Assembly (NCBI GenBank): GCA_001662655.1
Contig: KV460225.1
Direction: 5' to 3' (one strand)
Source of the DNA: Pseudogymnoascus verrucosus
Lineage: Eukaryota
DNA: 64,000 nucleotides
Position numbers and translations under genes: made by a program. Numbering within the stretch: position 1 is the stretch's first letter; each line of letters opens with the position of its first letter. Below are positions 1 through 20,655 of this stretch, one piece after another. A model generated the notes under the pieces. That model saw only the letters and a program-made list of their open reading frames with translations, did no database searches and was not told the DNA's origin.

Positions 1-933
1 CTCCAAGGGTAGCGCGTGTAGCTTCGTTTGTCGGCGGTTCGATCACTTGGTGCTCGGTCGACTTCAGCACGCCATTGAACCAGCGAGAGAGCAGGTCACC
101 AACTAGCCGTTAAGTCAGTCTCAAAAAAATATCAGAAATTTGTTTTCGGTGCTGCAGAAGGGATAAGCGATAAGGGATCAGTGAGCGTTGCATTACATAC
201 CATTTATAATGGCGCAGCCCGGGATTGGTGGCACGTCAAAGAACCGTCCGTCTTTTCCACGAACCTGCAACCCTCCATTGCTGTCATTGAATAGCAATGT
301 CAAAGTGCCATAATCAGTATGTACGCCTGCTCGCACCCGGGTCTCAAACGTATCTATCGTCGTCTCTGGATAATGCAGGACGCGAAAGAAATGGTCCTTG
401 TCCTGCACATACTGCAAAAAGTAGTTCCGCGGCAGCCCGACCTCCTCCGCTAACGTGCTCAGCAAACCGAGATGGATGTCATGGCTCCTCTCAAAGAACG
501 CATTCATATCGGTCCTGAACTCGGGCCAGTCTGCCGGCCACTGATTTGGTCGCGTCACATCGCTGTCATCGCCCAGATCAAACGCCTCCTTCTGGTCTGA
601 GAATTTCGAAGACCCGGAGGTCCGCTCTGGCGAGAACCAGCCGTGGAAGAACTTGCTTTCACCGGTTTCCACCTTCTCCTTTTCAGAGATAGGCTGTGAG
701 AAAAATCGCGCGGCGTGCGCAAAGATCGTCTGCACGGCAGATTCGTCGATGCCGTGGTTTCTGAGGTAGACGAAACCAACGTCCTTCAAGGCCTGAAACA
801 GCTTTCGCTTTTCCACAGAGCTCTCTTCTGCTGTAATGGCGCCATCCGAGTTCTTATAGCCTTCGAGTTTGGAGAAGTCGATAATTGGAAGGTTGGCTGC
901 GGACGAGCTGGTCGTGTTTGGAGAAATAGCCAT
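1..933 (-). CDS. 2-oxoglutarate/Fe(II)-dependent oxygenase (IPNS/DIOX_N family); 3' end runs off the window
   Basis: N-terminal LPIIDFS...GFVYLRNHGI, then RVLHYP and HTDYGTLTLLF...GGLQV. An intron at 200-103 (GTATGT...CTAG) restores NVGDLLSRWFNGVLKSTEH, completing the HxD...H iron triad. Confidence 0.93.
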
Positions 934-1201
934 GTTAAGTATGTTTTATCTCTACTGCTGGCCTGTTGTTTAGCGGGCGCCATCACTTTTATTCAATATC
1001 CTCTTTATCATCTTCTTGTTGTTAGCGTAGTCTATCACAAGCCTATCCGTCCCCATGTATACTCATGTCCGAACCCATGAGCTCAAGGCTGATAAGATCC
1101 TGCAGGAAGACCAAAGATTCCCGACAACCATCATACAGCGAAGGTGGCTGAAATTAACACGATTTGGCAATCAAGGTGTGCTTGTGTGCTTGTTGCCTAC
1201 C

Positions 1202-1216
1202 TCGGAACCATTCCGA
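1202..1216. promoter_or_regulatory. Palindrome TCGGAA-N3-TTCCGA (CGG-N7-CCG), candidate Zn2Cys6 binding site in a divergent promoter
   Basis: Perfect inverted repeat with CGG triplets between the divergent starts at 933 and 1419. Function is inferred only. Confidence 0.35.
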
Positions 1217-1418
1217 ATTCTCAGGCGTGCGTGCGTGGTTGTTGAGAGTTCAATTGGCACGAGTCACGCTATTATCATATTGCCTACCTTCCTATCCAAG
1301 AAGAAATATAAGATATAGACATGCTTCCTTACGTTTCTCCAGAGTGATTCTCAACAAATTTGCTTAAAATTAGTTCTTTATCCTTATTCAACATATCTGC
1401 TTTGATAGCAAATCAATC

Positions 1419-3162
1419 ATGTTATTTCAATCTCGTCTTCCCAAACTGGCAATACCCAATACCGATGTGTTCCACTACCTCTTTCATCAGGGGCGCAGGA
1501 GCTATTCTCGAGAGCGGATTCTCTATCGAGTAGACGGCTCGGACGAGACTCTTACATTGGCACAGCTGGAAGAAAGAAGCGAGAAGCTTGCTAAGGTCTT
1601 GATTGCTTCGTACTCAATCAAGCCTGGAGACGTAATTACAATTCTCGCGACAGATAGTGTAAGTTGAAATCGGAAACCACACTACAAACCCAAGAAACTT
1701 TTCTAATCGAGCTCTATAGATCAACTTTCCCATCGCATTTTTTGCAATTCTGGCAGCTGGAGCAACTGTGTCTCTGATTCCCATCCAGAAAGACCTTGGG
1801 TATCTGGATGTTGCTGGGAGACTTGTGCAATCTGGTTCCAGGTTGATTTTCACAGACCAGGCGCTCTTGAGCATTGCAGAAACTGCGTTGGCGATCATTG
1901 GCGTGATTCCAGTGATTACTTTGGAGGAGGTCGATTCCAGATTTCCCAGATATCCACATCTCGATGTTCTCCTGAAACAGGAAGTCAGCGCTCCGAGGTT
2001 TCACCTCAACAGTGTAAGCGATTCTAGAAAGCACATTGCTTTCATCAACAGCACCAGTGGATCAACGGGAAAGATGAAGTCGGTTCTAACATCCCATGCA
2101 CATTTTATTGCCGTGATGGATGCGACTCGGGCCACCGTTCCCGAGAATACCAACCCAGAAGAGGATGTTTGGACATCCACGATCTCTCTCGGATATTACA
2201 TCTGCGGCAAGCTCTTCATGGGGTTGAACATCCTACTCGGCATTCCAGTTGTTCTACTGAAGAAGCCTCTTGATAATACCTCCCTGGACGTTATCACTCA
2301 ACACAACATTACCTTTCTATTCATTACACCCACGCTCGCAGCCCAGATCGCGAAGGCCGATACAACAAACCAGGACTTCAGCAGCATTAAGTGGTTGCTT
2401 TCAGCAGGTGCTCCCATGCATGAAAAGCTGCGATGTTCGGTTTCTCAGCAGCTGAACGGCAAGCATCTAACTCTCGAGTGGGGCACGACCGAGACCATGC
2501 TTCTTGCTATACAAGTCGATGAGCAGACTTGCGTTCCTGGCTCAAGTGGTACACTGACCAATGGAATTGAAGCGAAAGTGATCGACACGGAGACCGGCGA
2601 GGAACTTGGTCCTGGTGAAGAAGGGGAAATCTTGGTACGCAATAGTCTCTGTCCGTTCGTGGGCTACAAAGACAACGACGAAGCCAACAAAGATTTTGAT
2701 TCCGAGGGCTTCTTCCACACAGGCGATGTTGGATACCTGGACAGCACATGCAATGTCTTTATCAAAGACCGCCTCAAAGAGCTGCTCCGAGTAGGCGAAG
2801 GCTACGGATCCAGAATTTCGACTTCGGATTTGGAATCTGCCCTGTTTGATCATCCAGCCGTTGCTTCCGCTGTAGTGGTAGGGATCCGTGACGAATCAAC
2901 ACAAATCTACCATCCGACTGCGTTCGTGATTCTGCAGCCAGGCTACGATGCAAGCAGTGAAACCGCGAAGGAGATTGAGAGGCACACGACACGGGAACTG
3001 ACAGGCCTTAAACAGTTGTCTGGTGGAATTTATTTCGTGATTAAGTATCCTACGGTGGGGTTCAAGATCAACCGTGGAAAACTGAAGAGTTTGATTCATA
3101 TTGAGGAGGGGCAGGTGAAAACTTCGATGACGCATACGAGACTGCTTGAGGTGGCTGTTTGA
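1419..3162 (+). CDS. ANL-superfamily adenylating enzyme (4-coumarate-CoA-ligase-like), 2 exons, ~560 aa
   Basis: Exons 1419-1658 and 1720-3162 (GTAAGT...TAG, in frame). Motifs NSTSGSTGKMKSV, GTTET, GEILVR, GFFHTGD, DRLKEL and a C-terminal K-I-N-R. Confidence 0.9.
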
Positions 3163-4093: not shown

Positions 4094-5460
4094 ATGACAT
4101 TTGTAATGAGATCGCTCCTAGCTTGCAAAATCGGAATTAGACTAATGACGTCCAGATTGCCGTCAGTACTCTTCAACAGTACCCGAGGAGGGATGTCGAT
4201 GAAGTCGTTGAGCCGATCAATGGGCGCACTCTATACAATATGCCCTGGGATCGGAAGTCATGGTCTCAACGCATCCCAGCACAGGAAATTCAGTATCCTG
4301 ACCCGCTTGCCCTTGAAAGCGTCTGCCAAACGCTGCATTCCCTGCCCCCTCTTATTGAGGCTGGAGAAATCGAGAGGGCGCGGAATCTTGTGATAGAAGC
4401 TGCCAGTGGAAAAGCTTTTCTTATCCAAGGCGGAGACTGCTCGGAGCGCTTCGACGATGTCAAATCAGACATCATTCGGCAGAAGGTGATGCTGCTGAGA
4501 GAGCAGTCCACCAGGCTCAGCAAAGGACTCGGCCTGCCAGTAGTACAGTTTGGGCGCATTGCAGGACAATACGCCAAACCGCGGTCCTCCCCTTTTGAAT
4601 CTCTGCCAGATGGGACTTTGATCCATGCCTTCCGTGGCGAGAACGTCAATGGCTTCAGTCTTCATCAACGGCTGCCAGATCCGCAACGTCTTCTCTTTGG
4701 ATACTTCTACGCGGCAGCAGCATTAAACAGCATTGGCCATCTCGAAAAAGAAGAGAGGCGGAAATCGACCATCTCTAGCTTCCCGTTTTTCACCGCGCAC
4801 GAAGCACTTCACTTGCCCTACGAGTCCGCACTGACGCACGAAGATTATAATCACTCCGCGGCTTTCGTTTGGGTTGGTGAGCGAACACGCCAGCTTGAAG
4901 GCGCACACATAGAGTATCTGCGTGGCCTCCGGAATCCCATCGGCGTCAAGATCGGGCCCACAACGCAGCCCGAAGAACTTGTCGCTGTCCTCAACCGGCT
5001 CAGTCTCAACAAGTGGGATTCAAAACGCATCGCAATAATCACGCGCCTCGGCAGCAAAAACGTCGTCGACGTCCTTCCCCGCTTAGCACAAGCCGTCCGA
5101 GACTCCGGCCTCAGCCCAGTCTGGGTCTGCGACCCCTGCCACGGCAACACAGTTGTAGTTGGCGGCGCGGTCAAGACACGGGTCCTGAAAGATATAATCG
5201 ACGAGGCCACGCTTTCATACGCTGTTTTGCGGGAAACAGGGTGCTTCCTAGGCGGCTTGCACCTGGAGCAGACGGGAGAGGCGGTGTCGGAATGTGTAGA
5301 CCGCTACCCAGCACCCGGTGATGAGGGGTTATTAATGGAAAATTATAACTCCTTGTGCGATCCACGTTTGTCTGGAGAACAGGCCCTCCGTGTGATTGAC
5401 AGTTTTTTGGCCTTTGTTGAGGCGCTTGAGGATAAGAATGTGGTTGCAAAGACTAGCTAG
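4094..5460 (+). CDS. Class II DAHP synthase, short form
   Basis: QGGDCSE, GRIAGQYAKPRS, TAHEAL, WVGERTRQ, NPIGVKIGP, CDPCHGNT, KTR, GGLHLE, CDPRL. A probable 9-nt first exon (4094-4102) and intron 4103-4155 (GTAATG..ACTAAT..CAG) join in frame to the ORF at 4240. Confidence 0.95.
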
Positions 5461-5548
5461 AGTGTGCTTTGGAAACTCCTGGGGAGGAAAAGAACAGCGA
5501 CATGAGAACATTTCAGACAGATCAAGTTTTTGTTGAATAGAACGTATT

Positions 5549-5623
5549 TTTTCTAGTCCACCGGCCAATGTTGACCATTCGACAATGGTCCAGTCCACTG
5601 GTGAATGGCCTAAGCCACCCGCC
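5549..5623 (+). repeat. Left terminal inverted repeat
   Basis: TTTTCTAGTCCACCGGCCAATGTTGACCATTCGACAATGGTCC... matches the reverse complement of 7807-7881. Confidence 0.9.
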
Positions 5624-5922
5624 CATACGAACATTGGCCAGTCGAATGGACCGTTGGCCAATGCATTCTCACATTGGCGGGTGGCCTACCAGTCGCCAAT
5701 GAGCGCTGTGCGAGATTTTCACATAACTATTCACATAACTATTCTGTCGTCCTCCCAATGTTTGACTGTCTATAACTGTAACACATAACCGTTATAATGG
5801 AAGCACATGTTATTACTTCTATCAACTTATTTCCAAATGATGTGCGTACTGCATTCCAGGCTTATATCCAGGCCCCAAAATACAACAACCGTGAGCGGCT
5901 TCCACATGCAAAATGGCGATAG

Positions 5923-7638
5923 ATGCATATATTCATCGACAACCCAACCTTGAAGCCGAAGACTCCCGCTGAATCGAACTTAAAGCACCATCCCCTTACG
6001 GAATTATACCTCACCAACAGACGGCTTTATCGAAACGCTGATGATAAATATAAGGAACCAAGATATGTAGTTCCAGAAAGCGAAGCCCTCGACCCCATTA
6101 TCAATGAGCATCTACAGCTTCTGCACGCCGGCCGAGACAAGGTGTGGGCAGCTATTCAGAAGAAGTACTACGGAACCAACTGTCAAGAGGTGATCTTTGC
6201 GTTGAAGCTATGTAAGAACTGTACTTTGAATGGACCTTCTGCAACAAAAGCGCCGCTGGTTCCCATTATTACTGGACGTGCATGGGAAAGGGTACAGATC
6301 GACCTCATCGATATGCAGCATGAGCCTTCAAGACAGTCCAAGCAGATATTACATATAAAAGATCACTTCAACAAATACACGCAGCTATATCCGTTGAAAT
6401 GCAAGAATGCAGAGCCTATTGCGGACGCCTTTGCTCTTTTCATTGCAGCGTTCCTGCCTCCAAAGATCATGCATGCAGATAACGGGAAGGAATTCAAAGG
6501 GGCTCTCTTGATTCTACACCGGAAATATGGAATCCAAGTTATCAATGGAGCGCCCCGCTCACCGCAGACGCAAGGCTTGGTCGAGCAGGCTAACGGAGTT
6601 GTGGAGGCCAAGTTACGGGCTTGGAAAATGGATAACGGGTCAACTGAGTGGGCTGATGGTCTATTGGAGGTCACGCTGGCCAGAACAGGCAAAAATACTG
6701 GATGTGTACCAGCAGAACTACTATTCAGAGAACGCACATTATACACGGGCTGGCTAAGTAGCCAGGCACAAAAGGATCTTACTATCGGAGTCCCTCAAGA
6801 GGATGCAATGCAGGCTCTGGTATACAGTATGCCAGCTCCTCCTGTCGATGAATGGTTCCAGCTAGAGCTGGAGCTTGAGGATCGTGCCCAAAACGAGTCT
6901 CACATTGATTCTCAGCTCCGGAGTCAGTGCCACAACTTGCGTGAGAACAGCCAGTTGCGTGAGAGCCAGTTGCGTAGGAGTCAGCGCCAGATCGAGCATC
7001 GGAGCAAGCACCAAAGTGAGAGTGAAAGCGAGTATGACAGCGAGAGCGAGCATACTGATGCCGACCGTGAGAGCGAGCATGATTCCGACCTTGAAACCAT
7101 CACTGTACAACCAGCCGATCCAATAATTCAAAATGCTCAAAAGTGTACGCAAAAAGCAAGGGCCCTGATGGCACGCAAATACACAAAGAGGAACGATACC
7201 CAGCACTTTGATACGGGATATATAGTCACATTGAAGGTCCCTCAAGAGGATAGGACATTGACTGATAATAGACGCCTATTTGCACGCATATTGGATGAAC
7301 CCTACTCCCACAGATATAAAGTTATAACAGTATCAGGTATTATAAAACGTCTTATACCAACGAAGCAGCTGGGAGCTGTAGTGCGGTCTCTATGGGCAGA
7401 CACCGTTATCCCAGATTCGGAACAAGAGGTCACGCTTGGGCAGGCTGCAAGTGATGCTTCTACAAGCTCTCGAGTAGGGGTATCATGCCAATGTAAGGGA
7501 TCTTGTGATACGAAGAGATGTAGGTGTTATAAGGAGAATAAGCAGTGCAGCGTACACTGCCATAGAGACGATCATGACTGCGGGAACTTATCAGGTTTGG
7601 CTACACGTACAGAGCTGGCTTTGGTCGAGAAGGTGTAG
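5923..7638 (+). CDS. Integrase-like transposase (H2C2 finger, rve DDE core, C-terminal Cys-rich CXC-like domain); ancestral start probably 5797
   Basis: EH..LHAG...CKNC finger; QIDLID / HADNGKEF / QGLVEQAN DDE triad; C-terminal CQCKGSCDTKRCRCYKENKQCSVHCH. Confidence 0.88.
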   Translation: MHIFIDNPTLKPKTPAESNLKHHPLTELYLTNRRLYRNADDKYKEPRYVVPESEALDPIINEHLQLLHAGRDKVWAAIQKKYYGTNCQEVIFALKLCKNCTLNGPSATKAPLVPIITGRAWERVQIDLIDMQHEPSRQSKQILHIKDHFNKYTQLYPLKCKNAEPIADAFALFIAAFLPPKIMHADNGKEFKGALLILHRKYGIQVINGAPRSPQTQGLVEQANGVVEAKLRAWKMDNGSTEWADGLLEVTLARTGKNTGCVPAELLFRERTLYTGWLSSQAQKDLTIGVPQEDAMQALVYSMPAPPVDEWFQLELELEDRAQNESHIDSQLRSQCHNLRENSQLRESQLRRSQRQIEHRSKHQSESESEYDSESEHTDADRESEHDSDLETITVQPADPIIQNAQKCTQKARALMARKYTKRNDTQHFDTGYIVTLKVPQEDRTLTDNRRLFARILDEPYSHRYKVITVSGIIKRLIPTKQLGAVVRSLWADTVIPDSEQEVTLGQAASDASTSSRVGVSCQCKGSCDTKRCRCYKENKQCSVHCHRDDHDCGNLSGLATRTELALVEKV

Positions 7639-7706
7639 ACACGGAAATAGCGTGCAAGGGCAGATACAGCTGGTAATATAGCATAGATGAAATCACTTTA
7701 CAGCCT

Positions 7707-7780
7707 GTATCAGTATGTCAGTATCACATCGGGTGCCAGTATCACAGTCAGTATTGGTATCACAGTCGGTGTCAGTCTTC
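7707..7780. repeat. Degenerate ~18-bp subterminal tandem repeat (GTATCACAGTC core) inside the transposon
   Basis: gtatcagtatgtca-gtatcacatcgggtgcca-gtatcacagtcagtattg-gtatcacagtcggtgtca. Confidence 0.7.
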
Positions 7781-7806
7781 CTACTTATTATTAATCTACT
7801 GGCATT

Positions 7807-7881
7807 GGCGGGTGGCCTTGGCCATTCACTAATGGACTGGACCATTGGCGAATGGTCAACATTGGCCCGTGGACTGGAACA
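7807..7881 (-). repeat. Right terminal inverted repeat
   Basis: Reverse complement reads TGTTCCAGTCCACGGGCCAATGTTGACCATTCGCCAATGGTCC... Confidence 0.9.
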
Positions 7882-8141
7882 TATTTGAATTGCATGAATA
7901 ATTGACATTCAGAATAATTGATATTCAAACTGAAAGCATGGTATTCAGAAAAAGAGATTGTACACTGTCTGACTATTGAAACTTGACTCGCACTTGCAGC
8001 TATAAGCACCCACACACATTCAAGGTTCAACCAGAGGGGCCAATAGAAATATTTGTATAGGTAGTCAGTCTTGCATCTTAACTCTCAAAGAATTAACGTT
8101 TACTACTACCGCAGCAAAATTTAAAGCAAATTTTAGCCATC

Positions 8142-9629: not shown

Positions 9630-10459
9630 GGTCAAAATATTAGGTCAGCACGATGAATAAATTATGACGAGTAATGCTGGACGGAGTAGCAAATACTACA
9701 AGTTAATGAAGACCTACTCTATTCACTCAATATGTGAGATTAAGACACTCTAACAAGCAGTGACACTTGGAAGAATTGGCGAACGGGTTTTGGGAAGAAG
9801 AAGTAGAGGAACTTAGGCTGGTAGAGTATATACAAACAACAGAAGATATCGTGGATGTGGTACAGATGATAGGAGCAGAGCCAGAGCACAGACTGTAAAC
9901 AATGCTGTTGCTATATTAATTACATAGGTGTGCCGATGCACTTTTGCCAATCTCCATCACCTCCTCATTTCTCCGATTTAGATTAATCGGTGAGACATGG
10001 AGTTGGATGGTACGGTTGTTTCTTGCTATACTCGATATGTTCCGTTTGTACCTCACTGTTCAATCTACGTAGTAAATTAAGCGACGACATTGCATAACCT
10101 CGAACAACTAAAGTCCGACGATTACGCTTCGACCTTCGAATAAATAGTCATGTCAACTCCGACCGATGATGTGACTACAACTCTAGAGTAGCTATTGGAA
10201 TAAGCGACAACAAGAAGGAAACCGCCAGGAATGCATCAGGAGCCAAGACTAAATATCTCCGTCCTACATCCCACTACTAAAATTATATCTCGCCGCGTAG
10301 TTTATAAGTATGTGTTATATCTTCTTCGATGCTTACAGTAAACACAGTGACTTGAATTCCTGAAATATATATTCCCAATCAACACATTGTCACGTCACGT
10401 GATATACTCTTCGTCCACAGCATCTAGGACTTCTTTTGTTATTGATCAAGCTCTCCAAG

Positions 10460-11504
10460 ATGGCTTCAGAAACACTCACTTACCCTCCATACGAGAATAC
10501 AGCTTCGAAAACGATTCTCAAAAGCAACGCTTTTAGGGGCACTGAGGGAGTCTACATGCTCCCTCACCATGCCAAAGAAATCGACAGATTGACGAAGCAG
10601 CATTTATTCATGCGAAGCACGACTGAAAATTTGCAGCTCGCCAGTCCAATAACTTCTGGTGCTAAGGAGCTTCGTGTTCTTGATTGTGGCTGCGCCGATG
10701 GTAAGTCGTGAGATGTCACAAGAGCCCATTATATTACAGATATTTACTGATCGTCCAAGGCACGTGGCTCAAAGATCTCGAAATCCTCTATCCCCAGATA
10801 AAGTTCGATCGTCACGGCGTCGATATCGGATCTGATCTGTTTCCTCAGCACTCCAACATCGATCTGCGCCCGCACAATATCACCACGCCTTTCCCTGCTT
10901 CCTGGGAATGGAACGACTCCTTCGATGTCATACATCAACGTCTTCTTGTCTGGGGCCTTAAGCTATCCCAATGGTCCCAAGTCCTCCGCAATCTCTACAC
11001 AATTCTCAAACCAGGTGGCTACATACAGCTTGTTGAGATCGAATTCATCGATCCCGCGAACCCAGCCACGCTACCACAACTGCACAAACAGGCATTGATG
11101 CAGAAATGGTCAACCGCGAGTTTCGGAATGGATATTGACATCGCCTACAAGCTTGGCAATTTGCTGAAGGAAGCAAACTTCACAAATGTGACAAAGGTCC
11201 AGTTTGCACATGGCTATGGTGCAAAGGCCCGAAGTGCGGCGCAGCGTGACGTAAGCGCTGAGTTGTGGGTGGAGTGTTTCCGTAGTTTGGACACGAAGAT
11301 TCCTGCTGGTAAGATATTATTATTTGTTCTCTACTTGACAGTGATGCTGATTGGGGTACAGAGGGTGGGATTCCGGGCGTTGCGAAGGATGCGAAAGAGT
11401 TTCATGAGTTCTTGGATAGCTTGGAGACAGAGATCAAGACATTTGGTTATGAGCCAAAGCTCAATTTTGTGTATGCGCAAAAGCCAGTGTCGCCCGATAT
11501 ATAA
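10460..11504 (+). CDS. Class I SAM-dependent methyltransferase (fungal LaeA/UMTA-like type), 3 exons
   Basis: Exons 10460-10700, 10760-11308, 11362-11504. YMLP..EIDRL, VLDCGCADGTW, GVDI, FDVIHQR, LKPGGYIQLVE, terminal YAQKP. Confidence 0.9.
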
Positions 11505-12068
11505 GTTAGTGATAGTAAACACTAGATAAGACGTATATACATCTCGAGTGAACAAAGTACTCTAAATCGATGTCAGAAGCTCTTGTCGACAAAGGCCACA
11601 ACGAGACACCGTTCCCCCAAACGGCATGAACTGCTGATACGATAACGGGTAACCGCGGTCTCTGCTGTCCGCGCTACCCATTCGTGCTAATCTTACCCAT
11701 CCGTGCTACCCACGGAGGAGATACCATAAGTTTGGCCAACGTATCTCAAGCCACATATCGCATCTTATTGCACAATCGCCCCAGCAACATCAGTAGCGCT
11801 TTTGAAGTACCTGCCTTTTCTTCTTGTTTTTTTAAATAATCGAATTTGCATAGCTTTATTACATGATGGCTCAACGAAAGATAGATGACATTTACCAAAA
11901 TTACCGAAATTACGAAAGAAAGATCACGTTTTATCCCAATAATTCAGAATTCGTCCGTCGTTGGTGCAGCTTCGCCTAAGTTACTGAAACAGATGTTCAC
12001 CTTCACCTTCACCTTCACGCGTTCACGATTTACATGTGGTATTGGGAGTACCATAAACGACCAACCTT

Positions 12069-14202
12069 ATGCCGGACTCTACTCTCCCCCCCGAAAGAGA
12101 ATCGTACACTTGTGGGATTTGTGGCAAGAATTTTGATCGAAGTAGGTATTTTCTGGTTAATGGAATAGCTTTCCTCAGATGGGCTGCCCATCACATCTCA
12201 CTTACTCCTCATAGGAGATCTACGGAATCGACATAAGCGCCGATGTATTCGTTCAATCTCGAACCCGCGAAAGTCGAAACAGAAATCTTGTTGCTCTTGC
12301 GCAACTTCTAAGCTGAGTTGTGATATGAGGCTTCCATCTTGCTCTCGGTGTACCATTCGAAAAATAAGCTGCGAATATGCTTCCACGACTGGTAAGCGGG
12401 AAGAGAAGAAACCTGCCGGCGATTTGGAGAACCTTTCAGATGCAAGTGACCAAACAACTTCAGCTCTCGAGAACTCTTCCGCAAAGGAAAAAGACGTCCA
12501 AAATCAAGCGTATTCGAGTCTGCATACCCATCTTCCCGTTGACGATGCCCGGGCGGCCACAATTATGTCGTTGTCATGTGATCGAACTGCTGAAAATACG
12601 GCGACATCTAGCCTACGGCCGCCATACAGCAAGTTGAGCGAGTCTCCTAGGCGAGATGAAAGTATGAATAGCAGTGCAGCTCAATCATCAGATATATCGT
12701 CTGGTCACATCATGGAGAAAGAGTTAACCAGAACACGGGTCAATATCGAGAATTTTCAGCATTTCTTGGATTCTGATCCGGTTTTAGAAGTAGCTCTGGC
12801 GGAGACAAGTACCATGGCTCTCTCTCCAGGGTATCAACTTTCAAGTGCTCAATCTCTGTTTCAAATCAATGACACGACTGCTTTATTGGAAGGATTTAAT
12901 AGCCAATGGCTGAATTCGAATGTGGCGAACTTTCAGTCCACGAGTGAACATGATTGGGGCAATTCCGTGACAAACTTGTCCATCGAACCATCACGCGATT
13001 TCGGTTTTAATCTTATGGGATCTTTTGGTATACCGGGAAGCCATACTACTTCGAATGCGTTTCAAAAGATAGCTACGGAATGTCCTGGATCAAGTTTTGA
13101 CACTCCAGCCTGGAAGCCGCCACTTCGGCCTGAAACGCTTGAATATGCGGATAGAGTATCTGAAGATGAACCGTCGTTAGTCGTCCTCAACGGGCCTTCA
13201 AGAATCACTCCCGTCGTTCCTATTAATATCGGCAAAGATGCCCAAGATCGGGATCTGGAAGTTTCTACATTGGATCAAGGAAGTGAATTCACATCATATC
13301 CTGTTAATGGCATATCTTACCAGATGAATTCAAATAAAGATCTGGCTAAGATGCTTTTGGAATTCCCTCAAATGATGGCTCGACCTGGTGGGAAATACCC
13401 ACCATTCGTACACCACAGGCTCTATCGTTGCGAAGAAGGGGATGTGCTGAAGCCATTAGCTATTGCATTTTGTTTTGTGGCCGCCTTGAATGCGGCATTT
13501 CCAAGTGGCAAAGGTTTTGTTCATTCTTTGATGAATGCTGAAAGGGATCAGCTTTTGAAAGGATTCCGCCTGTTGAGGGAGTCTGAGCTTGAAATGATAG
13601 CTACTGTGCATGCCATCTGCGTCTATCAGATTATGGGGTTTTTTGATGACTCGAGCCCGGATTCCGCTCGTTTTGCCGAATTGCAACAACCCTTCTTCCT
13701 TAGGATGGCCCGCCGATTTGTTGCTTCATATATGCCACAACTACGCTCATCTTATGATGATAGCGACTACTCCGAACCAGTTTGGGAGAAGTGGATTTCT
13801 ACAGAGACAGTGCGACGAACTTTCTTCCTTATTCACATTATCAATGTCATCGCTTGCCGAACCGAGAAACAAAACCCATACTTTTATGAGGAGCTTGACG
13901 ACGACCTCGTTATGGACCTTCCGTTGCCAGCCCCAGAGAAGATCTGGAAGGCAAATTCTGCGGCGGAGTGGAAATCAGCTCTTGAGGAAGAACTCCAAGG
14001 TGGTTGGCAAGCAAATAGAACAGCGAGTATGAACTTCAGCGGAAATGGATGGAAAGAAAGTACTGTCAATGGCAGCGAATGGGATCTCAGCGGTGATGGC
14101 ATGTTATCGGGTGCTACCAGAACGAGTTTCTATGAGATCCACCTGACAAATTCGCATGAATTCACAAGGCTTTTGATGCACTGTATTGACCGAAGGAGAT
14201 GA
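12069..14202 (+). CDS. Transcription factor with an N-terminal C2HC/C2H2-type finger plus a Zn(II)2Cys6 cluster
   Basis: Exon 12069-12141, intron 12142-12214. Spliced: YTCGICGKNFDRRDLRNRHKRRC...SCCSCATSKLSCDMRLPSCSRCTIRKISCEY. C-terminal fungal TF region (PPFVH, WEKWI..ETVRRT, LPLPAPEKIW). Confidence 0.88.
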
Positions 14203-14553
14203 GGGTAATATCTGTCGATTTTGACCCAGCTATTTAAACAGAGAATATGAACACAGACGAGATCCTGTACAATGTCAGTGAAATTAGAATAACGAGAAAC
14301 TGTGGAGACTGTTCCTAGTACCTGTCAGTGAAGATACCCTAGTTACTTATTTCGAAGAGAATAGAATTGAATTATACCAAGGCTATAAAAATAATAGAAT
14401 ATCAAGTCTTGATATATGTGTTCAAACAAAGAATAGGTTCCAATGGCTCCATCCATGAAATCTTCCATGCACCTAAGAACCACACACACACCACCCGGAT
14501 CCATCAAACAACTTATTCTTCAGACTATACATAATCTGATTTTCAATGTACCT

Positions 14554-16176
14554 TTAAGTTATATCATCATTACTAAGAGGAGGACGATGATTTTCAAAAT
14601 TCATTATGACAAAGCGAGCACCAAAGTTCTTCCCTACGATATTTGCGGTCTCAGGTGCCTGGTTCTCGTTTAGGAGCACTACATTCTCCGGGTACAATTT
14701 TCCAAGAAGTGCAAACCCGATTACTTGGTTTTTTGCTGGGATGATATGGATCGAATTTGCGTCGTTCGTCAGACTATCAGAGCTAGGTTTGTGGGATAAT
14801 AAAGTGACAAGCCCAGGCTGCGAAAGAATATTAGACGCTTTATGGAGGAAGACATGTATATTCGAAGCTGATTTCGGTCGACTCTCTGATAATTCAGGTG
14901 ATTTTCTGGTGAACCGACTCTCGAAAACGCTACGTTCTGTTTGGTCTTTCTTCGAAGAAGTCTTGTTTTCACCATTGGATATAGTACCGTTTGGGCCTTC
15001 GTGACTCGAAATTGGTCTCGTGGATAAGTTGATATGATGAACGTAACGTTGGCCCCGAGAAATTTGACCAATATCGACGGAAACCAATGTGCCGCGGTCT
15101 ATATCCACCTGCAACTTGAGAATGCGTCTGGTGGAATCGCTACCAGCATTGACCTCGAGTGAGCATTTCGTGCTTTGTGGTTTGAGAGCGAAAAGTGATG
15201 GTGGAGGCCAAGCTCCAGGAGCTACAACTGTTTCAGGCTCAGAAATATTGTTTTGGGGAGCAGTATAGTAGTTTTGATGCTCATAGTCGAAAAGCAGGTT
15301 GCTGCTAGTGTCTTCAAGTCGCGCTGGATGATAGCGAAGAAGGTAGCAAGATCGGGATCCCGAAAGAAATGCTGGAAGGACCAATCCTTGCGAGTATTGG
15401 AATCCGTAGCCACCACTTAGAAGATCTGGCGCTGTAAAGGTTTTGGCAAGATTGACAATTGCCAAGTAAGGGGTTGCGCCAGTGAGACATTGCAAGAGGA
15501 ACCTCTTTCGTGGCTCTTCAGCTCCTCGAAGCCCCTTTTTGGCTTTTGTTGTGATTATCAAGGGCACTTCGTCATAATTCTCGAAGGGCAAAAGCAGGTC
15601 TCGAAGAAGAATCATCTGATGAAGCCATTCGTTGTATAACTCCATTAAGTAACGATTGCTCCTCGAACCCATAAGAAGAGAAACCACCGCCGATGTCCAT
15701 AGATGACCTTCACAAGGGCTTCGTATTCTGAAATTTGCATCGGCCTTTTCGAGACTGAAAGCATCTCGAGCATGTTGAACCAAAACCGTTCCAATGATTT
15801 GAGCCTGTCCTGCAATTTCTCTTCGTGATGTATCGGATGCCCCGTAGGATAAGGGAAGTGATGAGACTCTTCCAGAGGTAGAGAGGATTGCTGTAAGTCC
15901 GCCGAGCAGGGTCTCAAGAGGAGAATCTTCTGGAGGGCTGCTTTGACCAAGAGCACAAACAACAGTCTCCAAGAGTGGCGATACCGCTGCAACCAACTGT
16001 TTGGCCGTATATGCACCTGGAGAAAGTGGATAGTCAACTCGTATCGAGCCCTGATTATCAGAGGGCGCCATCGGCCGTGTTTGATGATAGACTGCAGGTA
16101 CAATGGTTCGCCCAAGAACCAAACCGCCCAGATGCGCAATTTGATAAGCCGTTGCTGTAACGGGCTCGAAGCCCAT
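14554..16176 (-). CDS. Hypothetical protein B (unrecognised family, paralog of 8142-9629), intronless, 540 aa
   Basis: Long ORF colinear with protein A over its full length, plus a low-complexity insertion near the C-terminus. Confidence 0.85.
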   Translation of the reverse strand: MGFEPVTATAYQIAHLGGLVLGRTIVPAVYHQTRPMAPSDNQGSIRVDYPLSPGAYTAKQLVAAVSPLLETVVCALGQSSPPEDSPLETLLGGLTAILSTSGRVSSLPLSYGASDTSRREIAGQAQIIGTVLVQHARDAFSLEKADANFRIRSPCEGHLWTSAVVSLLMGSRSNRYLMELYNEWLHQMILLRDLLLPFENYDEVPLIITTKAKKGLRGAEEPRKRFLLQCLTGATPYLAIVNLAKTFTAPDLLSGGYGFQYSQGLVLPAFLSGSRSCYLLRYHPARLEDTSSNLLFDYEHQNYYTAPQNNISEPETVVAPGAWPPPSLFALKPQSTKCSLEVNAGSDSTRRILKLQVDIDRGTLVSVDIGQISRGQRYVHHINLSTRPISSHEGPNGTISNGENKTSSKKDQTERSVFESRFTRKSPELSESRPKSASNIHVFLHKASNILSQPGLVTLLSHKPSSDSLTNDANSIHIIPAKNQVIGFALLGKLYPENVVLLNENQAPETANIVGKNFGARFVIMNFENHRPPLSNDDIT

Positions 16177-17029
16177 TTCGAATCTAACGAACTCGTGACA
16201 TCAAGGCAAGAGAACCGACGAGCTTGAAATAAGTAACGTCAAGGGTAGGAACGTTCACTTTGCGAACAGTGTTTATTTGATTTCGAATTACAAGACAGCA
16301 TGAATAACAATTCTGACGAAGCTAGTATCGATCGACACCATGAGAGAGAACTACATTTTCGAAGAAGCGAATGGAATCGACTCTACCAACAAAGCATCAA
16401 AGTTACCGGGAGCGGCTTCTGCATCGAACTCCGAGAATAATTGTATGTATGTAGGTAGAGTTCCGCTGTCACTGGTGCGATCGGGATACTACTATATGCA
16501 GAACGACCAGGAACTTCCGTCGGCAGCAACTATCTCGCTTGCCGTCAATGACGACCATCAAACTCCGAGCGCAACACGCCTCTAACGTTAGCGACGAATG
16601 AGGCATCCACACATCCAATGACCACAAAAATGACACCAAGGCTAATTTTATGTTCTTATCACCAATCTTATGAAGAATGAAGTTGGAACACAGAACATTG
16701 GCAACATTTCCCCACAATCCAAGCATTATGCAACCATCGGATCAGTACAGGAGGCGCAATTCGTCTTTTACTGTCCCGAAGATGTGCTTTCATGGCCTTC
16801 ATGGCGTTCAAATTTGACATAGCCTCATTTTCACCAGCGAGGTTTTTGATCAGTGTATCGCATCTTCAGAGATAAGATGTAGTCGATACATAAAAGAAAG
16901 CAAGTCGCCTTCTTGTTTGGTCTTTTGAGATCATAGGCACTGCTATCCCTAGAGCAAGCTTGTTCACTCTCGCTACTGGCCTTATATATCATTAAATACA
17001 AGTACACTCATCGGACATCTTCGGCTATC

Positions 17030-18880
17030 ATGGCTGGAAAGTCTTGGTCTCCGGGTTGGATACACGATAAAGGATTGAGGACGCTGTACTTCCTTCTTTT
17101 GATTCCGCTCCTGAGCAGTTCTTATCAAGGATTCGATGGCATGATTATGAATGGATTGCAGCTCTTGCCACCATGGCAGAAAGGTAATTATTACGAATTT
17201 GAATATCTGCTAGTCCCTCCGCTTTTTGAGCTCTTAGCTAACAAGCGCTTGCAGAGTTCAATTATCCCACTGGTCCTATTCTAGGTCTGCTCAACTCTAT
17301 TCAGACAGTTGGAGCAATGGTTGCACTGCCGTTTATTACGTGGCTTGTTGATAGGTTTGGTCGTCGCCGTGCTATCGCCTTTGGTGCATCATGGACAATC
17401 GTTGGTGCTATTCTGCAAGCTTCTTCTAAACACATTCCTCAGTTTATCATCGCTCGACTCCTCATCGGATGGGGTCTTGCATACACCGTAGTGGCCTCTC
17501 CACTTTTGATTGTGGAATTAGCGGCTCCGAGACATCGCGGCTCAATAATCTCATATTTCGGTACCGTCTGGTTTATTGGTGCTATAATTGCTGCATGGGT
17601 CACGTTTGGCACCAGGAACATTCCAAATTCTTGGGCTTGGAGAATTCCAAGTGTGCTCCAGGCTTTTCCGGCCATTATCCAGATTGTCGGCATTTTCTTC
17701 GTCCCTGAGAGTCCTCGCTGGCTTGTCTCGAAAGGTCGCGGAAGTGAAGCAAAGGCGATATTGGCAAAGTATCATGCAAATGGAGATTCGCTTGATTCTT
17801 TGGTCGAATTAGAGTATGCCGAAATCAAGGATGCCGTTATCGAAGACGCAAATCATAAACAAAAGGGAAGTTGGAAGGATTTGGTGCGAACCGCTCCAAA
17901 TCGTAGGCGTCTTTTACTTGTGTTCTTCTGTGGAGTTTTTATTGAGGTATTTTCAAATCATTTGTTCTGTCTTCAATCCAATTCTGACACTTATAGATCT
18001 CTGGCAATGGTCTTGTCCAATACTATCTCAATTCAATTCTCAACAGCATCGGCATAACTGGAGTCACAACGAAAACCACTATCAACGGATGTCTTTCAAT
18101 CTATAATTTTGTCATTGCCGTTGTCGCCTCATTGTATGTCGAGAAGGTTGGACGTCGTCCTTTGTTTATCATTTCGACTGCTGGAATGCTAGTTTCCTTC
18201 ATCATTTGGACCACATTGGCAGCATGTATGTAACTCCATCCCACCCTCCATATTCTTATACGCTAACCATAAACTCTTATTAGTGTATACCACTCATGGA
18301 ACTAGCAGCTACGCTATCGGAGTCCTTGTCGCCATATTCCTGTGCCATGGTTTTTACGATATTGGATGGACCCCATTGTACTCTTATGCGAGCGAGCTTC
18401 TTCCATTTGAGACCCGAGCCCGAGGCATCACATTTCAAAGTGGAGTCATGCACGCCTTCGGTTTCTTCGGTACCTTTGTCAATCCAATCGGTCTTAAAAA
18501 CATTGGCTGGAAGTACTACATTGCGTATATTGTATACACAATTCTTGAGGTACGTATTTCTCAGTTCGTTTCACAACCCGAATTTTCTCAGAAGTTCAAT
18601 TGTGAAACGTCTGTTTATCTACATCTGCTAACTTGAGCGTTTGTCTACTCAGCTCCTCTTCGTCTGGCACTTCATTGTTGAGACCCGTGGATACACTCTT
18701 GAACAGATCGCTCAGATATTTGACACTCCAAATATTAGCTGGAAACAACGTCGCAATATGAAGGCACCTGGTAATATCTTGGATGACTCCGTCGATGGAA
18801 TTACTACACCAGGCGAGAAGCAAACTACAAAATCGTCATCAACGGAGATTGTTGATGACAGTTCAGCTGAGAAGCAGTAG
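17030..18880 (+). CDS. MFS sugar porter (lactose permease/cellodextrin-transporter-like), multi-exon
   Basis: GFDG..MNGLQ, DRFGRR, ELAAPRHRG, WRIPS.LQ, PESPRWL, EKVGRRPL, ELLPFETRARG, VETRGYTLE. Four short introns are visible. Confidence 0.92.
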
Positions 18881-19015
18881 TCAACTTTGCATCATGATTA
18901 GTGCACTGCTTTGTTAGAATTAGCTACTTAATCACTTTCGTAGATTCACTTGAACGACAGTCACAACCTACATGCTCCACCCGTAACCTACGCGAAGCCT
19001 ACTGCTCTAGTGATA

Positions 19016-20653: not shown

Positions 20654-20655
20654 TA

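What the first reader, a model, noticed from the sequence alone, without database searches (positions are those of the whole stretch)
1..18880. Candidate non-canonical (core-less) shikimate-derived biosynthetic gene cluster
Seen: eight adjacent genes of secondary-metabolism type, namely a 2OG-Fe(II) oxygenase and an adenylating enzyme on a divergent promoter, a class II DAHP synthase, two paralogous unknown proteins, a SAM methyltransferase (divergent from paralog A), a Zn2Cys6 regulator and an MFS transporter. Removing the transposon leaves only ~345 bp between the DAHP synthase and paralog A. No PKS, NRPS, terpene synthase, DMATS or RiPP precursor is in the window. Known: extra DAHP synthases inside clusters supply aromatic precursors (e.g. 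phenazine PhzC). Inference: the pathway activates, oxidises and methylates a shikimate/chorismate-derived acid, and the unknown paralogs may form the scaffold. The cluster may extend left of position 1.
Basis: partly seen in the sequence, partly recalled or inferred. Interest (0 to 1): 0.87.

Follow-up and report, generated by a model that had tools for sequence, protein, structure and literature searches.

The report
Conserved core-less fungal aromatic gene cluster
A set of neighbouring fungal genes, including an extra shikimate-pathway entry enzyme, an acid-activating enzyme and two copies of a protein of unknown kind, recurs together in many distantly related moulds and lichens and probably makes an undescribed aromatic compound.

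Summary
Window 1-18880 (a Pseudogymnoascus-like ascomycete) carries a 2OG oxygenase, a 4CL/luciferase-type acyl-CoA ligase, a short-form class II DAHP synthase, a TIR transposon, two 39%-identical paralogs ("Par"), a methyltransferase, a Zn2Cys6 regulator and a sugar-transporter-type MFS. No PKS, NRPS or terpene gene lies in the 64 kb.

The closest homologs of Par, the DAHP synthase and the ligase share contigs, 1-8 locus tags apart where tags are shown, in many Pezizomycotina. All three share a contig in 8 named species. DAHP synthase and ligase do so in 19. Par also recurs with the methyltransferase, the 2OG oxygenase and a Zn2Cys6 gene in metagenomic fungal contigs.

The DAHP synthase lacks the regulatory insert, like PhzC. 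This fits precursor supply.

Par is an orphan family. It has no Pfam, NCBIfam or PDB match and only 178 representative clusters in 1.84 billion proteins. A confident model finds no known fold.

Its bacterial relatives are single genes beside HxlR or TetR regulators and transporters, not in biosynthetic clusters. A scaffold-forming role for Par is therefore unproven. The product is unknown, and I found no paper on this cluster.

The parts
1..933 (-). 2OG-Fe(II) oxygenase, 5' part. Start codon at 933-931; first exon runs down to about 193; the 3' end lies off the window's left edge.
   Evidence: Pfam DIOX_N 2.4e-23 and 2OG-FeII_Oxy 1.6e-08. The closest solved relative is thymine dioxygenase 5c3o, E 5.3e-36. 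An HxD motif (VHTDYG) is visible in the translation. In L001 the ortholog's stop lies about 236 nt beyond window position 16.
934..1418 (.). Divergent promoter region between the oxygenase and the ligase.
   Evidence: Gene orientations. One of the four copies of the 9-mer AACAAGAAG lies at 1012-1020.
1419..3162 (+). Stand-alone acyl-CoA ligase of the 4-coumarate-CoA-ligase/luciferase (ANL) type. Two exons with an intron at about 1665-1720.
   Evidence: Pfam AMP-binding 1.5e-42 plus AMP-binding_C 4.8e-10. Best solved relatives are firefly luciferases (4.6e-46) and 4-coumarate-CoA ligases (1.2e-38). The 560-aa ortholog P0386 carries only PF00501 and PF13193.
4240..5460 (+). Short-form class II DAHP synthase (406 aa, single exon).
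   Evidence: PF01474 1.6e-121. It aligns end to end with 6BMC (residues 15-388 against 15-387). Against 5UXM and the M. tuberculosis enzyme it splits into two pieces, with about 55 residues of theirs unmatched after query residue 165.
5546..7884 (.). Inserted DNA transposon with 81-nt terminal inverted repeats and an integrase ORF (5923-7638, plus strand). It is not part of the cluster's function.
   Evidence: Inverted repeats 88% complementary. rve 3.6e-06 and Integrase_H2C2 0.0028. Absent from L001. Present at the same site in the contigs of runs X2 and X3.
8142..9629 (-). ParA, a 495-aa member of an orphan protein family. It is the diverged, long-branch paralog.
   Evidence: No Pfam, NCBIfam or PDB sequence match. 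P0001 is 100% identical and 495 aa. Branch length 0.83 in the tree. It keeps every column that is invariant in the 26-sequence alignment A1.
9630..10459 (.). Divergent promoter region between ParA and the methyltransferase.
   Evidence: Orientations. The 9-mer lies at 10209-10217.
10460..11529 (+). SAM-dependent methyltransferase. It has several exons and the coordinates are approximate.
   Evidence: Weak Pfam methyltransferase hits (Methyltransf_23 2e-05; Methyltransf_11, _25, _12 and _31 at 0.002-0.006). A glycine-rich LDCGCADG stretch is in the first exon. Homologs lie divergent from Par in L001, L004/L005 and L009/L010.
12069..14202 (+). Zn2Cys6 transcription factor. The start is approximate: the zinc cluster is encoded at about 12286-12396, upstream of the first in-frame ATG, so a 5' exon is likely.
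   Evidence: Zn_clus 7e-4. Homologs lie next to Par in L001 (71%), L003 (36%, E 3e-55) and L046 (30%, E 2e-20). Only the zinc-cluster part matches in L002/L023 and L006-L010.
14554..16176 (-). ParB, a 540-aa member of the same orphan family. It is the mainstream paralog.
   Evidence: 39% identical to ParA. P0052 is identical. It groups with the main fungal clade (99/96 support).
17030..18880 (+). MFS transporter of the sugar-transporter (importer-like) family, with several introns. Its membership of the cluster is uncertain.
   Evidence: Sugar_tr 4.2e-52 and 2.6e-09 on two exons. A homolog 72-74% identical lies beside a ParB-like gene and a Zn2Cys6 gene in L003. The gene is absent from the corresponding place in L001.

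Best explanation
This is one copy of a widely conserved, core-less biosynthetic gene cluster of Pezizomycotina. It probably makes an undescribed aromatic metabolite from the shikimate pathway.

Shown:
- Gene content.
- Conservation of the linkage among DAHP synthase, ligase and Par across fungal classes.
- The short, PhzC-like architecture of the DAHP synthase.

Inferred pathway:
1. The extra DAHP synthase lacks the regulatory insert. It pushes carbon into the shikimate pathway when the Zn2Cys6 regulator switches the cluster on.
2. An aromatic carboxylic acid derived from chorismate or an aromatic amino acid is activated by the 4CL-type ligase as acyl-AMP or acyl-CoA.
3. The Par enzyme either makes that acid or consumes the activated acid. 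ParB is the conserved form and ParA a lineage-specific duplicate. Par has an invariant Cys, four near-invariant His, several Asp/Glu and many Arg, which would fit a metal- or thiol-dependent enzyme binding an anionic substrate.
4. The 2OG oxygenase hydroxylates or desaturates the intermediate, and the methyltransferase methylates it.
5. A PDR-type ABC transporter just left of the window exports the product.

My odds: real conserved cluster about 0.9; biosynthetic and shikimate-derived about 0.65; Par as the scaffold-forming or committing enzyme about 0.3.
For: Linkage in other fungi. Each of the three homolog tables lists the 120 best hits.
- Par, DAHP synthase and ligase share a contig in 8 named species: Piccolia ochrophora (tags M1833_001214/1216/1218), Wetmoreana brouardii (Q9181_002260/2253/2254), Peltula sp. 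(M1816_000399/404/403), Penicillium taxi (N7495_001173/1176, with the ligase on the same contig), Aspergillus granulosus, A. heterothallicus, A. varians and Byssothecium circinans. They also do so on 2 unnamed contigs.
- Par and DAHP synthase share a contig in 4 more named species.
- Par and ligase share a contig in 6 more named species.
- DAHP synthase and ligase are adjacent or nearly so by tag, or share a contig, in 11 more named species. Examples are Villophora Q9218_005991/005990, Pycnora M1827_007267/007268 and Xylographa MMC27_008452/008451. A further 14 unnamed pairs of listed proteins have equal contig lengths.

Metagenome contigs.
- The close-relative locus L001 keeps 7 of the 8 genes in order, at about 80% nucleotide identity.
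- Among the nine fungal lineages in the metagenome loci, the methyltransferase is beside Par in 3, a 2OG oxygenase in 5 and a Zn2Cys6 gene in 7.
- 2OG oxygenase, PDR ABC transporter, methyltransferase and Par occur together in L004, and the same ABC type flanks the oxygenase in L001.

Age of the linkage. Both major fungal Par clades contain members linked to DAHP synthase or ligase, so the linkage is old.

DAHP synthase. It is collinear with 6BMC and lacks the roughly 55-residue insert of 5UXM and the M. tuberculosis AroG. Short-form type IIB enzymes omit helices alpha2a/alpha2b, are insensitive to aromatic amino acids and serve secondary metabolism (PMC6435475, passages read). The KPRS, GDC-x-E and DP-x-HGN stretches are kept in the alignments. 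That these hold catalytic and metal-binding residues is my recollection.

Fungal precedent. A DAHP synthase is co-expressed with the core gene and the regulator of the ascocorynin cluster (PMC9047271, passages read).

No canonical core gene in the window. A tblastn with the window's cluster proteins found no other cluster homologs within +/-10 kb of Par beyond those listed for L002-L010, and the Pfam scan of the larger ORFs of seven of these loci found no PKS or NRPS domain.
Against: - No product, no expression data and no enzyme assay.
- Par's bacterial relatives point another way. None of the 80 genome loci has a DAHP synthase, ligase or methyltransferase within 6 kb, and only 2 have a 2OG oxygenase.
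- In the bacterial loci annotated with Pfam, the Par gene stands beside a regulator. HxlR is the neighbour in 10 of 13 metagenome loci and 12 of 19 Firmicute genome loci. A TetR gene is the neighbour in 7 of the other 18 genome loci, and in 6 of these it is of the TetR_C_13 type. Uptake transporters, thioredoxin, nitroreductase or FUR-type genes are often nearby. This is the look of an inducible detoxifying or catabolic enzyme.
- Several fungal Par loci carry importer-type transporters: Sugar_tr in the window and L003, and an NCS1 permease in L006.
- Eight of the nine fungal lineages in the metagenome loci have no DAHP synthase or full-length ligase within 10 kb of Par. The trio is therefore frequent but not universal.
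Distances are known only where locus tags are shown.
- The methyltransferase and Zn2Cys6 Pfam scores are below their curated cut-offs.
Confidence: 0.55

Rival explanations
1. This is a catabolic or detoxification cluster. An imported aromatic acid or other xenobiotic is taken up by the importer-type MFS and sensed by the Zn2Cys6 regulator. It is then activated by the ligase and converted by Par, the oxygenase and the methyltransferase. Par would do in fungi what it does in bacteria, where it is an inducible stand-alone enzyme.
For: Bacterial Par genes sit next to HxlR or TetR regulators and uptake or efflux transporters and show no biosynthetic neighbours. Importer-type transporters lie beside Par in the window and L003 (Sugar_tr) and in L006 (NCS1 permease). 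A dedicated regulator is the most constant neighbour of Par in both kingdoms.
Against: A DAHP synthase has no role in breakdown. Yet a short-form one is adjacent to the ligase, or shares its contig, in 19 named species, and shares a contig with Par in 12. PDR-type ABC exporters flank the cluster in L001 and L004. The MFS is missing from the close relative L001.
Confidence: 0.2
2. This is the precursor-supply and tailoring arm of an ordinary cluster whose PKS, NRPS or NRPS-like core lies beyond the left edge of the window. The ascocorynin cluster pairs a DAHP synthase with an NRPS-like enzyme in this way.
For: The window starts inside the oxygenase gene, so the left flank is unseen. There is a fungal precedent for a DAHP synthase beside an NRPS-like core (PMC9047271, passages read).
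Against: In L001 the 4 kb beyond the oxygenase hold only a PDR ABC transporter. No PKS or NRPS domain was found among the larger ORFs within +/-10 kb of Par in L002, L003, L004, L006, L008 and L010 (99 ORFs scanned, including two from the short locus L047). In Piccolia, Peltula and Wetmoreana the trio spans only 5-8 consecutive locus tags. The genes between them were not seen.
Confidence: 0.12
3. Two independent units happen to lie side by side. One is a regulator-ParB-MFS unit, an inducible converting or uptake module as in L003 and in bacteria. The other is a DAHP synthase-ligase-oxygenase-methyltransferase-ParA unit.
For: L003 keeps only the MFS, a ParB-like gene and the Zn2Cys6 gene, in the same arrangement as the window. 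ParA and ParB lie on different branches.
Against: Single-copy Par genes of the mainstream (ParB-like) clade share contigs with DAHP synthase and/or ligase, for example in Piccolia, A. varians, A. granulosus and Lepidopterella. Both units stay adjacent in L001.
Confidence: 0.1
4. This is a chance neighbourhood of unrelated genes.
For: None beyond the lack of expression data.
Against: The linkage recurs across Leotiomycetes, Eurotiomycetes, Sordariomycetes, Dothideomycetes and several lichen-forming classes.
Confidence: 0.03

Closest known systems
PhzC-type (type IIB) DAH7P synthase of the phenazine operon of Pseudomonas aeruginosa (PDB 6BMC)
   Same: It is a class II enzyme in the short form without the alpha2a/alpha2b insert. 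The window's enzyme is collinear with it over residues 15-388. It is encoded inside a pathway-specific gene set to feed the shikimate pathway (PMC6435475, passages read).
   Different: It is bacterial and sits in an operon with known phenazine enzymes. The fungal enzyme scores higher against the full-length 5UXM enzyme in its conserved blocks (289.9 against 240.1 bits). Insensitivity to feedback has not been measured for the fungal enzyme.
Ascocorynin cluster of Ascocoryne sarcoides (acyN, regulator, DAHP synthase)
   Same: It is a cluster in a filamentous ascomycete in which a DAHP synthase is co-expressed with the pathway genes and a zinc-cluster regulator to raise aromatic precursor supply (PMC9047271, passages read).
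   Different: That cluster has a recognisable core, the NRPS-like polyporic acid synthetase AcyN. The present one has none, but has a stand-alone ligase and the orphan Par proteins. I did not compare the two DAHP synthases.
'Unknown-unknown' fungal clusters built around arginine-containing cyclodipeptide synthases (AnkA/AvaA)
   Same: These are core-less fungal clusters whose key enzyme was annotated as a hypothetical protein without domains and is widely conserved in fungi. They also carry methyltransferase and ABC transporter genes (PMC11610942, whole text read).
   Different: The residues reported as essential in AvaA include a DDXXE motif. The 26-sequence Par alignment has no conserved DDXXE. 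I held no AnkA or AvaA sequence, so no direct comparison was made. Those clusters carry no DAHP synthase.
4-coumarate-CoA ligases and firefly luciferases (ANL superfamily)
   Same: These are the best solved relatives of the ligase, with E values from 4.6e-46 to 1e-33 and the same two-domain build.
   Different: The substrate is unknown. The closest fungal homologs are uncharacterised and are merely named '4-coumarate-CoA ligase' by their sources.

Membership tests
Class II DAHP synthase (PF01474) | Full-length match to the family profile | tested here: met
   PF01474 E 1.6e-121, 406 bits. The TIGR01358 equivalog scores 365 bits, below its cut-off of 615. The protein is therefore a family member but not a typical primary-metabolism equivalog.
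Type IIB (short-form) DAH7P synthase | Lacks the alpha2a/alpha2b insertion and keeps the N-terminal extension | tested here: met
   One collinear alignment to 6BMC (15-388 against 15-387). Alignments to 5UXM and 6PBJ break after query residue 165-168 and resume at 181, skipping residues 174-231 and 189-242 of those chains. The definition comes from PMC6435475 (passages read).
Type IIB (short-form) DAH7P synthase | Insensitive to aromatic amino acids | not testable with these tools
   This needs an enzyme assay.
ANL acyl-CoA ligase (stand-alone, not NRPS-like) | AMP-binding and AMP-binding_C domains only, with no carrier, condensation, thioesterase or reductase domain | tested here: met
   One search finds only these two domains. 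The ORF stops at 3162. The 560-aa ortholog P0386 lists only PF00501 and PF13193.
2OG-Fe(II) oxygenase | DIOX_N and 2OG-FeII_Oxy domains with an HxD...H iron triad | tested here: inconclusive
   Both domains match and the HxD is visible (VHTDYG). The distal His lies in the part of the gene beyond the window's edge.
Class I SAM methyltransferase | Methyltransferase profile match and a glycine-rich SAM motif | tested here: inconclusive
   Five methyltransferase profiles match, all below their curated cut-offs (best 24.8 bits against 27). An LDCGCADG motif is present in exon 1. No PDB sequence match for the 185 aa encoded at 10765-11319.
Arginine-containing cyclodipeptide synthase (RCDPS) | Conserved DDXXE motif (with Cys and two Tyr) reported as essential in AvaA | tested here: not met
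   The consensus and the invariant columns of the 26-sequence fungal Par alignment show no DDXXE. The motif is taken from PMC11610942 (whole text read). No RCDPS sequence was available for a direct alignment.
Canonical fungal BGC (PKS, NRPS, terpene synthase, DMATS core) | A core synthase gene in or beside the cluster | tested here: not met
   None among the 13 proteins scanned from 1-18880, the 17 large ORFs scanned from 21.9-63.4 kb, the 4 kb beyond the oxygenase in L001 or the 99 ORFs scanned from seven other fungal loci. The window's own left flank is unseen.
Any known protein family or fold, for Par | A sequence-profile or structural match | tested here: inconclusive
   Sequence: no Pfam hit at E<=10 shared by more than 1 of 31 members, no NCBIfam hit and no PDB sequence hit at E<=1. 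Structure: Foldseek found no match at E<=1e-3 for the whole model (pLDDT 86, pTM 0.87) or the C-terminal domain model (pLDDT 84). VIA-align gave a best Z of 4.3 (rmsd 4.4, 110 aligned) and 4.2 (rmsd 3.9, 96 aligned; weak likeness to thiamine-diphosphate-binding domains).

The most novel reading that the evidence does not exclude
Par is a new enzyme family with a fold not yet seen in solved structures. In fungi it is the committing enzyme of a widespread, so far invisible aromatic pathway. It either makes the aryl acid from chorismate or an aromatic amino acid, or builds the scaffold from the aryl-CoA that the ligase supplies. The cluster would then define a new class of fungal biosynthetic gene cluster. 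That class would be present in lichens, Aspergillus (hits in A. fumigatus, A. flavus and A. oryzae for the DAHP synthase and ligase), Penicillium, Fusarium, Trichoderma and dermatophytes, and would be missed by tools that look for core enzymes.
Probability: 0.3. Interest if true: 0.88.

Novelty: new variant of a known kind. Interest (0 to 1): 0.76.

Why it matters
Genome-mining tools find fungal biosynthetic clusters by their PKS, NRPS or terpene core, so clusters without one are missed. This cluster is such a case, and its linkage is conserved across at least five classes of Pezizomycotina. It also contains an orphan enzyme family with no recognisable fold.

If the cluster is biosynthetic, it gives access to an undescribed aromatic metabolite made by many fungi, including medically and industrially important ones. 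It would also add a new enzyme chemistry and a search handle (Par plus a short-form DAHP synthase plus a 4CL-type ligase) for mining other genomes.

If Par instead proves to be an inducible converting enzyme, as its bacterial context suggests, that would assign a role to a family found in Paenibacillus, Streptomyces and fungi that currently has none.

Tried and rejected
- **RCDPS idea.** I considered it first and set it aside because the Par alignment has no DDXXE motif (PMC11610942). The primary paper PMC10159913 is not held.
- **Protein Atlas look-ups** for ParA and a bacterial homolog gave best scores of 0.78 and 0.85, no model and no lead.
- **Fold searches** gave no support for any known fold. 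Two chorismate mutase chains appeared among the helical-bundle rows (Z 3.7 and 3.3). They sit among ion channels and receptors, and I give them no weight.
- **Pfam weak-hit census** over 31 family members found nothing shared.
- **Over-long homolog gene models** were scanned for fused neighbours. This gave only a DUF7104 tail on one A. flavus ligase model.
- **Whole genome** of the window is not held, and the record behind L001 could not be searched. The window's left flank and other copies of DAHP synthase in this genome therefore could not be examined.
- **Expression.** No RNA holder was listed. One run guessed to be RNA holds three short low-depth contigs over ParA and upstream of the regulator. 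All four laid runs are contigs and show no splice joints.
- **Shared promoter motif.** The 9-mer AACAAGAAG occurs 4 times in the window, all in cluster promoters, but is not kept in the corresponding L001 regions. I do not use it as evidence of co-regulation.
- **CGG...CCG sites** are few and show no common pattern.
- **Earlier findings of this scan** gave nothing relevant.
- **Literature.** Searches for this cluster, and passages of 10.1101/184242 and PMC11109268, found no description of it. Subscription journals are not covered.
- **ParA-ParB complex prediction** was not run, because I make no binding claim.

Full report
**What is in the window**

The 64-kb window comes from a filamentous ascomycete. 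The best protein hits are to Pseudogymnoascus species, at 84-99% identity.

- a 2OG-Fe(II) oxygenase on the minus strand, starting at 933 and cut by the left edge of the window;
- an AMP-binding ligase (1419-3162), divergent from the oxygenase;
- a class II DAHP synthase (4240-5460);
- ParA (8142-9629, minus strand);
- a methyltransferase (about 10460-11529), divergent from ParA;
- a Zn2Cys6 regulator (about 12069-14202);
- ParB (14554-16176, minus strand);
- an MFS transporter (about 17030-18880).

ParA and ParB are 39% identical (E 2e-105).

The inserted element has 81-nt terminal inverted repeats at 5546-5626 and 7804-7884 and an rve-integrase ORF. It lies between the convergent 3' ends of the DAHP synthase and ParA, so it interrupts no promoter. 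Without it, 343 bp separate the two genes.

No PKS, NRPS, terpene synthase or DMATS domain was found in the window. From about 28 kb rightwards the genes are housekeeping ones, including a HECT E3 ligase at 37310-49808, a CDC20-type WD40 protein, a RabGAP and a V-ATPase subunit. An AT-rich stretch at 18-22 kb (GC 0.34-0.40) marks the right border of the cluster.

**The close relative**

One metagenome contig locus (L001) is collinear with window 16-16653 at about 80% nucleotide identity. It carries ParB, the regulator, the methyltransferase, ParA, the DAHP synthase, the ligase and the oxygenase in the same order, at 71-91% protein identity.

L001 differs from the window in three ways:
- It lacks the transposon.
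- Beyond the oxygenase it has a PDR-type ABC transporter. This is the likely content of the unseen left flank of the window.
- It does not have the MFS gene next to ParB.

**Is the gene set conserved elsewhere?**

I searched the large protein collection with ParA, the DAHP synthase and the ligase (120 best hits listed for each).

All three genes share a contig in 8 named species:
- Piccolia ochrophora (M1833_001214, 001216, 001218);
- Wetmoreana brouardii (Q9181_002260, 002253, 002254);
- Peltula sp. (M1816_000399, 000404, 000403);
- Penicillium taxi (N7495_001173 and 001176, with the ligase on the same contig);
- Aspergillus granulosus, A. heterothallicus, A. varians and Byssothecium circinans.

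They also share two unnamed contigs, of lengths 49100 and 30303.

Pairs of the genes are linked more widely:
- Par and the DAHP synthase share a contig in four more species: Trichoderma aethiopicum, Purpureocillium lavendulum, Chaenotheca gracillima (tags 5136/5132) and Bisporella sp.
- Par and the ligase share a contig in six more: Bathelium (7229/7227), Teloschistes (5063/5068), Emydomyces (2407/2415), Massarina, Uncinocarpus and Lepidopterella.
- The DAHP synthase and the ligase have neighbouring or nearly neighbouring tags in Villophora, cf. Caloplaca sp. 3, Pycnora, Xylographa, A. tanneri and A. calidoustus. They share a contig in A. spectabilis, A. floccosus, A. avenaceus, Tolypocladium capitatum and Penicillium angulare. 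A further 14 unnamed pairs of listed proteins have equal contig lengths.

Three caveats apply:
- Each table lists only its best 120 hits.
- Species represented by different assemblies in different tables (for example A. flavus/oryzae, A. fumigatus, Microsporum and Metarhizium) cannot be judged.

The counts are therefore lower bounds. In three lichen species (Villophora, Squamulea, Fulgogasparrea) Par and the DAHP synthase lie on different, mostly short contigs.

**Other linked genes**

A scan of metagenome contigs with the Par alignment returned 54 loci. By identity, GC content and ORF density, 13 of them are fungal and fall into about nine lineages.

A tblastn with the window's proteins and Pfam scans show the following:
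- The methyltransferase lies divergent from Par in L001, L004/L005 and L009/L010.
- A 2OG oxygenase lies near Par in L001, L004/L005, L006, L009/L010 and L047.
- A Zn2Cys6 gene lies next to Par in seven of the nine lineages.
- A PDR ABC transporter lies between the oxygenase and the methyltransferase in L004.
- The regulator, a ParB-like gene and an MFS (72-74% identical) lie in the window's arrangement in L003.

Outside L001, none of these loci has a DAHP synthase or a full-length ligase within 10 kb. L010 has only an N-terminal AMP-binding fragment beside Par. The full set of genes is therefore not universal.

**The DAHP synthase**

The enzyme aligns in one piece with chain 6BMC (residues 15-388 against 15-387). 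Against 5UXM and the M. tuberculosis enzyme it breaks into two pieces, with about 55 of their residues unmatched.

Passages read in PMC6435475 identify 6BMC as the phenazine-pathway enzyme PA1901. They define short-form type IIB enzymes as lacking helices alpha2a and alpha2b, being insensitive to aromatic amino acids and serving secondary metabolism.

The corresponding region varies in length (43-105 residues) among the 120 fungal homologs. In the 16 sequences I printed it is short or Pro/Ser/Thr-rich.

A fungal precedent exists. In Ascocoryne sarcoides a DAHP synthase is co-expressed with the NRPS-like core gene and the regulator of the ascocorynin cluster (PMC9047271, passages read).

I recall, from no call, that Neurospora has a plant-type DAHP synthase isoenzyme in primary metabolism. 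Class II alone would therefore not prove a secondary role. The short form and the constant pairing with the ligase are the stronger arguments.

**The other known enzymes**

- The ligase is closest to firefly luciferases and 4-coumarate-CoA ligases. It has no carrier or release domain, so it is a stand-alone acid-activating enzyme.
- The oxygenase is closest to thymine dioxygenase among solved structures (5.3e-36).
- The transporter is of the sugar-transporter family. This family is usually made of importers.

**The Par family**

Par has no Pfam or NCBIfam match and no sequence match in the PDB.

A profile search of 1.84 billion representative proteins found only 178 hits at E<=1e-3 and 156 at E<=1e-10. 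The family is small and isolated.

The 26-sequence fungal alignment has 58 invariant columns. They include a Ser-x-Cys-x-x-His stretch within the consensus SPCEGHLW, an Asn-Glu-x-x-His stretch, Arg-Asp, a stretch with consensus GYGFQY, a stretch with consensus DLGQIARGRRY, two further His and a stretch with consensus LGKLYPENV. Most of these persist in bacterial members.

AlphaFold models are confident: whole protein pLDDT 86.1 and pTM 0.87, C-terminal domain pLDDT 84.3. They show an N-terminal helical domain and a C-terminal alpha/beta domain.

Foldseek found nothing at E<=1e-3. The exhaustive aligner gave a best Z of 4.3 and 4.2. These values are below what is typical even for unrelated models, so no fold can be assigned. 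A weak or missing match does not prove that the fold is new.

**Par in bacteria**

The family also occurs in bacteria. A genome scan found 142 relatives, in Paenibacillus, Cohnella, Streptomyces, Actinoplanes, Rhodococcus, Reyranella, Rhizobium, Sporomusa and others.

There the gene stands alone:
- An HxlR-type regulator is a neighbour in 10 of 13 metagenome loci and in 12 of 19 Firmicute genome loci.
- A TetR regulator is a neighbour in 7 of the 18 other genome loci examined; in 6 of these it is of the TetR_C_13 type.
- Amino-acid ABC importers, MFS transporters, thioredoxin, nitroreductase, FUR-type regulators, an FGE-sulfatase-domain protein and a glutamate-cysteine ligase appear nearby in some loci.

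None of the 80 genome loci has a DAHP synthase, ligase or methyltransferase homolog within 6 kb. Two have a 2OG oxygenase homolog.

My gene calls in high-GC loci are crude (longest ORFs), so the actinobacterial counts are rough.

In a tree, the fungal proteins form one clade apart from the bacterial ones (support 97/95). ParB sits in the mainstream fungal clade, and ParA sits on a long branch of length 0.83. The tree used 39 sequences chosen by me from the hits, not all of them.

**Reading**

The linkage data make a chance neighbourhood very unlikely. The short-form DAHP synthase tied to an aryl-acid-type ligase argues for a biosynthetic pathway that draws on the shikimate pathway.

What Par does is open. 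Its residues suggest a metal- or thiol-dependent enzyme that binds an anionic substrate. Its universal pairing with a dedicated regulator, and its bacterial context, fit an inducible converting enzyme at least as well as a scaffold-forming synthase.

I put the biosynthetic, shikimate-derived reading at about 0.65 and a scaffold or committing role for Par at about 0.3. The main rivals are:
- a catabolic or detoxifying cluster, which is hard to square with the DAHP synthase;
- a tailoring arm of a cluster whose core lies off the window, which is not supported by the flanks I could see;
- two adjacent but independent units.

**Novelty**

My six searches for this cluster and the passages I read in two further papers found no description of this cluster or of the Par family. 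The library lacks most subscription journals, and I read no supplements, so prior work cannot be excluded.

Core-less fungal clusters and cluster-embedded DAHP synthases are known concepts (PMC11610942, PMC9047271). This combination and the orphan enzyme are not described there.

Noticed in passing
window 5546-7884: A 2.3-kb DNA transposon with 81-nt terminal inverted repeats. It encodes a 571-aa protein with an H2C2 zinc domain, an rve integrase core and a Cys-rich C-terminal tail. It is absent from the orthologous locus L001 but present at the same site in contigs of runs X2 and X3.
   Followed up: partly
window 1012-1020, 10209-10217, 11820-11828, 16909-16917: The 9-mer AACAAGAAG occurs four times in the 64 kb (0.57 expected). 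All four copies lie in promoter regions of the cluster. It is not conserved at the corresponding places in L001, so it may be chance.
   Followed up: partly
loci L011-L053 and L055-L134 (bacterial): Bacterial homologs of Par (31-37% identical) are single genes, usually next to an HxlR-family regulator (Firmicutes) or a TetR regulator, mostly of the TetR_C_13 type (actinobacteria). They are often accompanied by amino-acid ABC importers or MFS transporters. This is an uncharacterised regulator-enzyme pair.
   Followed up: partly
L010 11499-11840: A short ORF with only the N-terminal part of an AMP-binding domain lies directly beside the Par gene of a distant fungus. It is possibly the remnant of a lost ligase gene.
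   Followed up: no
L004 12910-13572: A gamma-glutamyl cyclotransferase (GGACT) gene lies just downstream of Par in a locus that also has the oxygenase, the PDR ABC transporter and the methyltransferase. This may hint at glutathione-conjugate chemistry.
   Followed up: no
window 18000-22000: An AT-rich stretch (GC 0.34-0.40 against about 0.46-0.51 on either side) lies at the right border of the cluster.
   Followed up: no
window 37310-49808: A gene of about 4170 aa on the minus strand looks at first sight like a megasynthase. It is a HECT-domain ubiquitin ligase with DUF908 and DUF913 domains, which is ordinary.
   Followed up: yes
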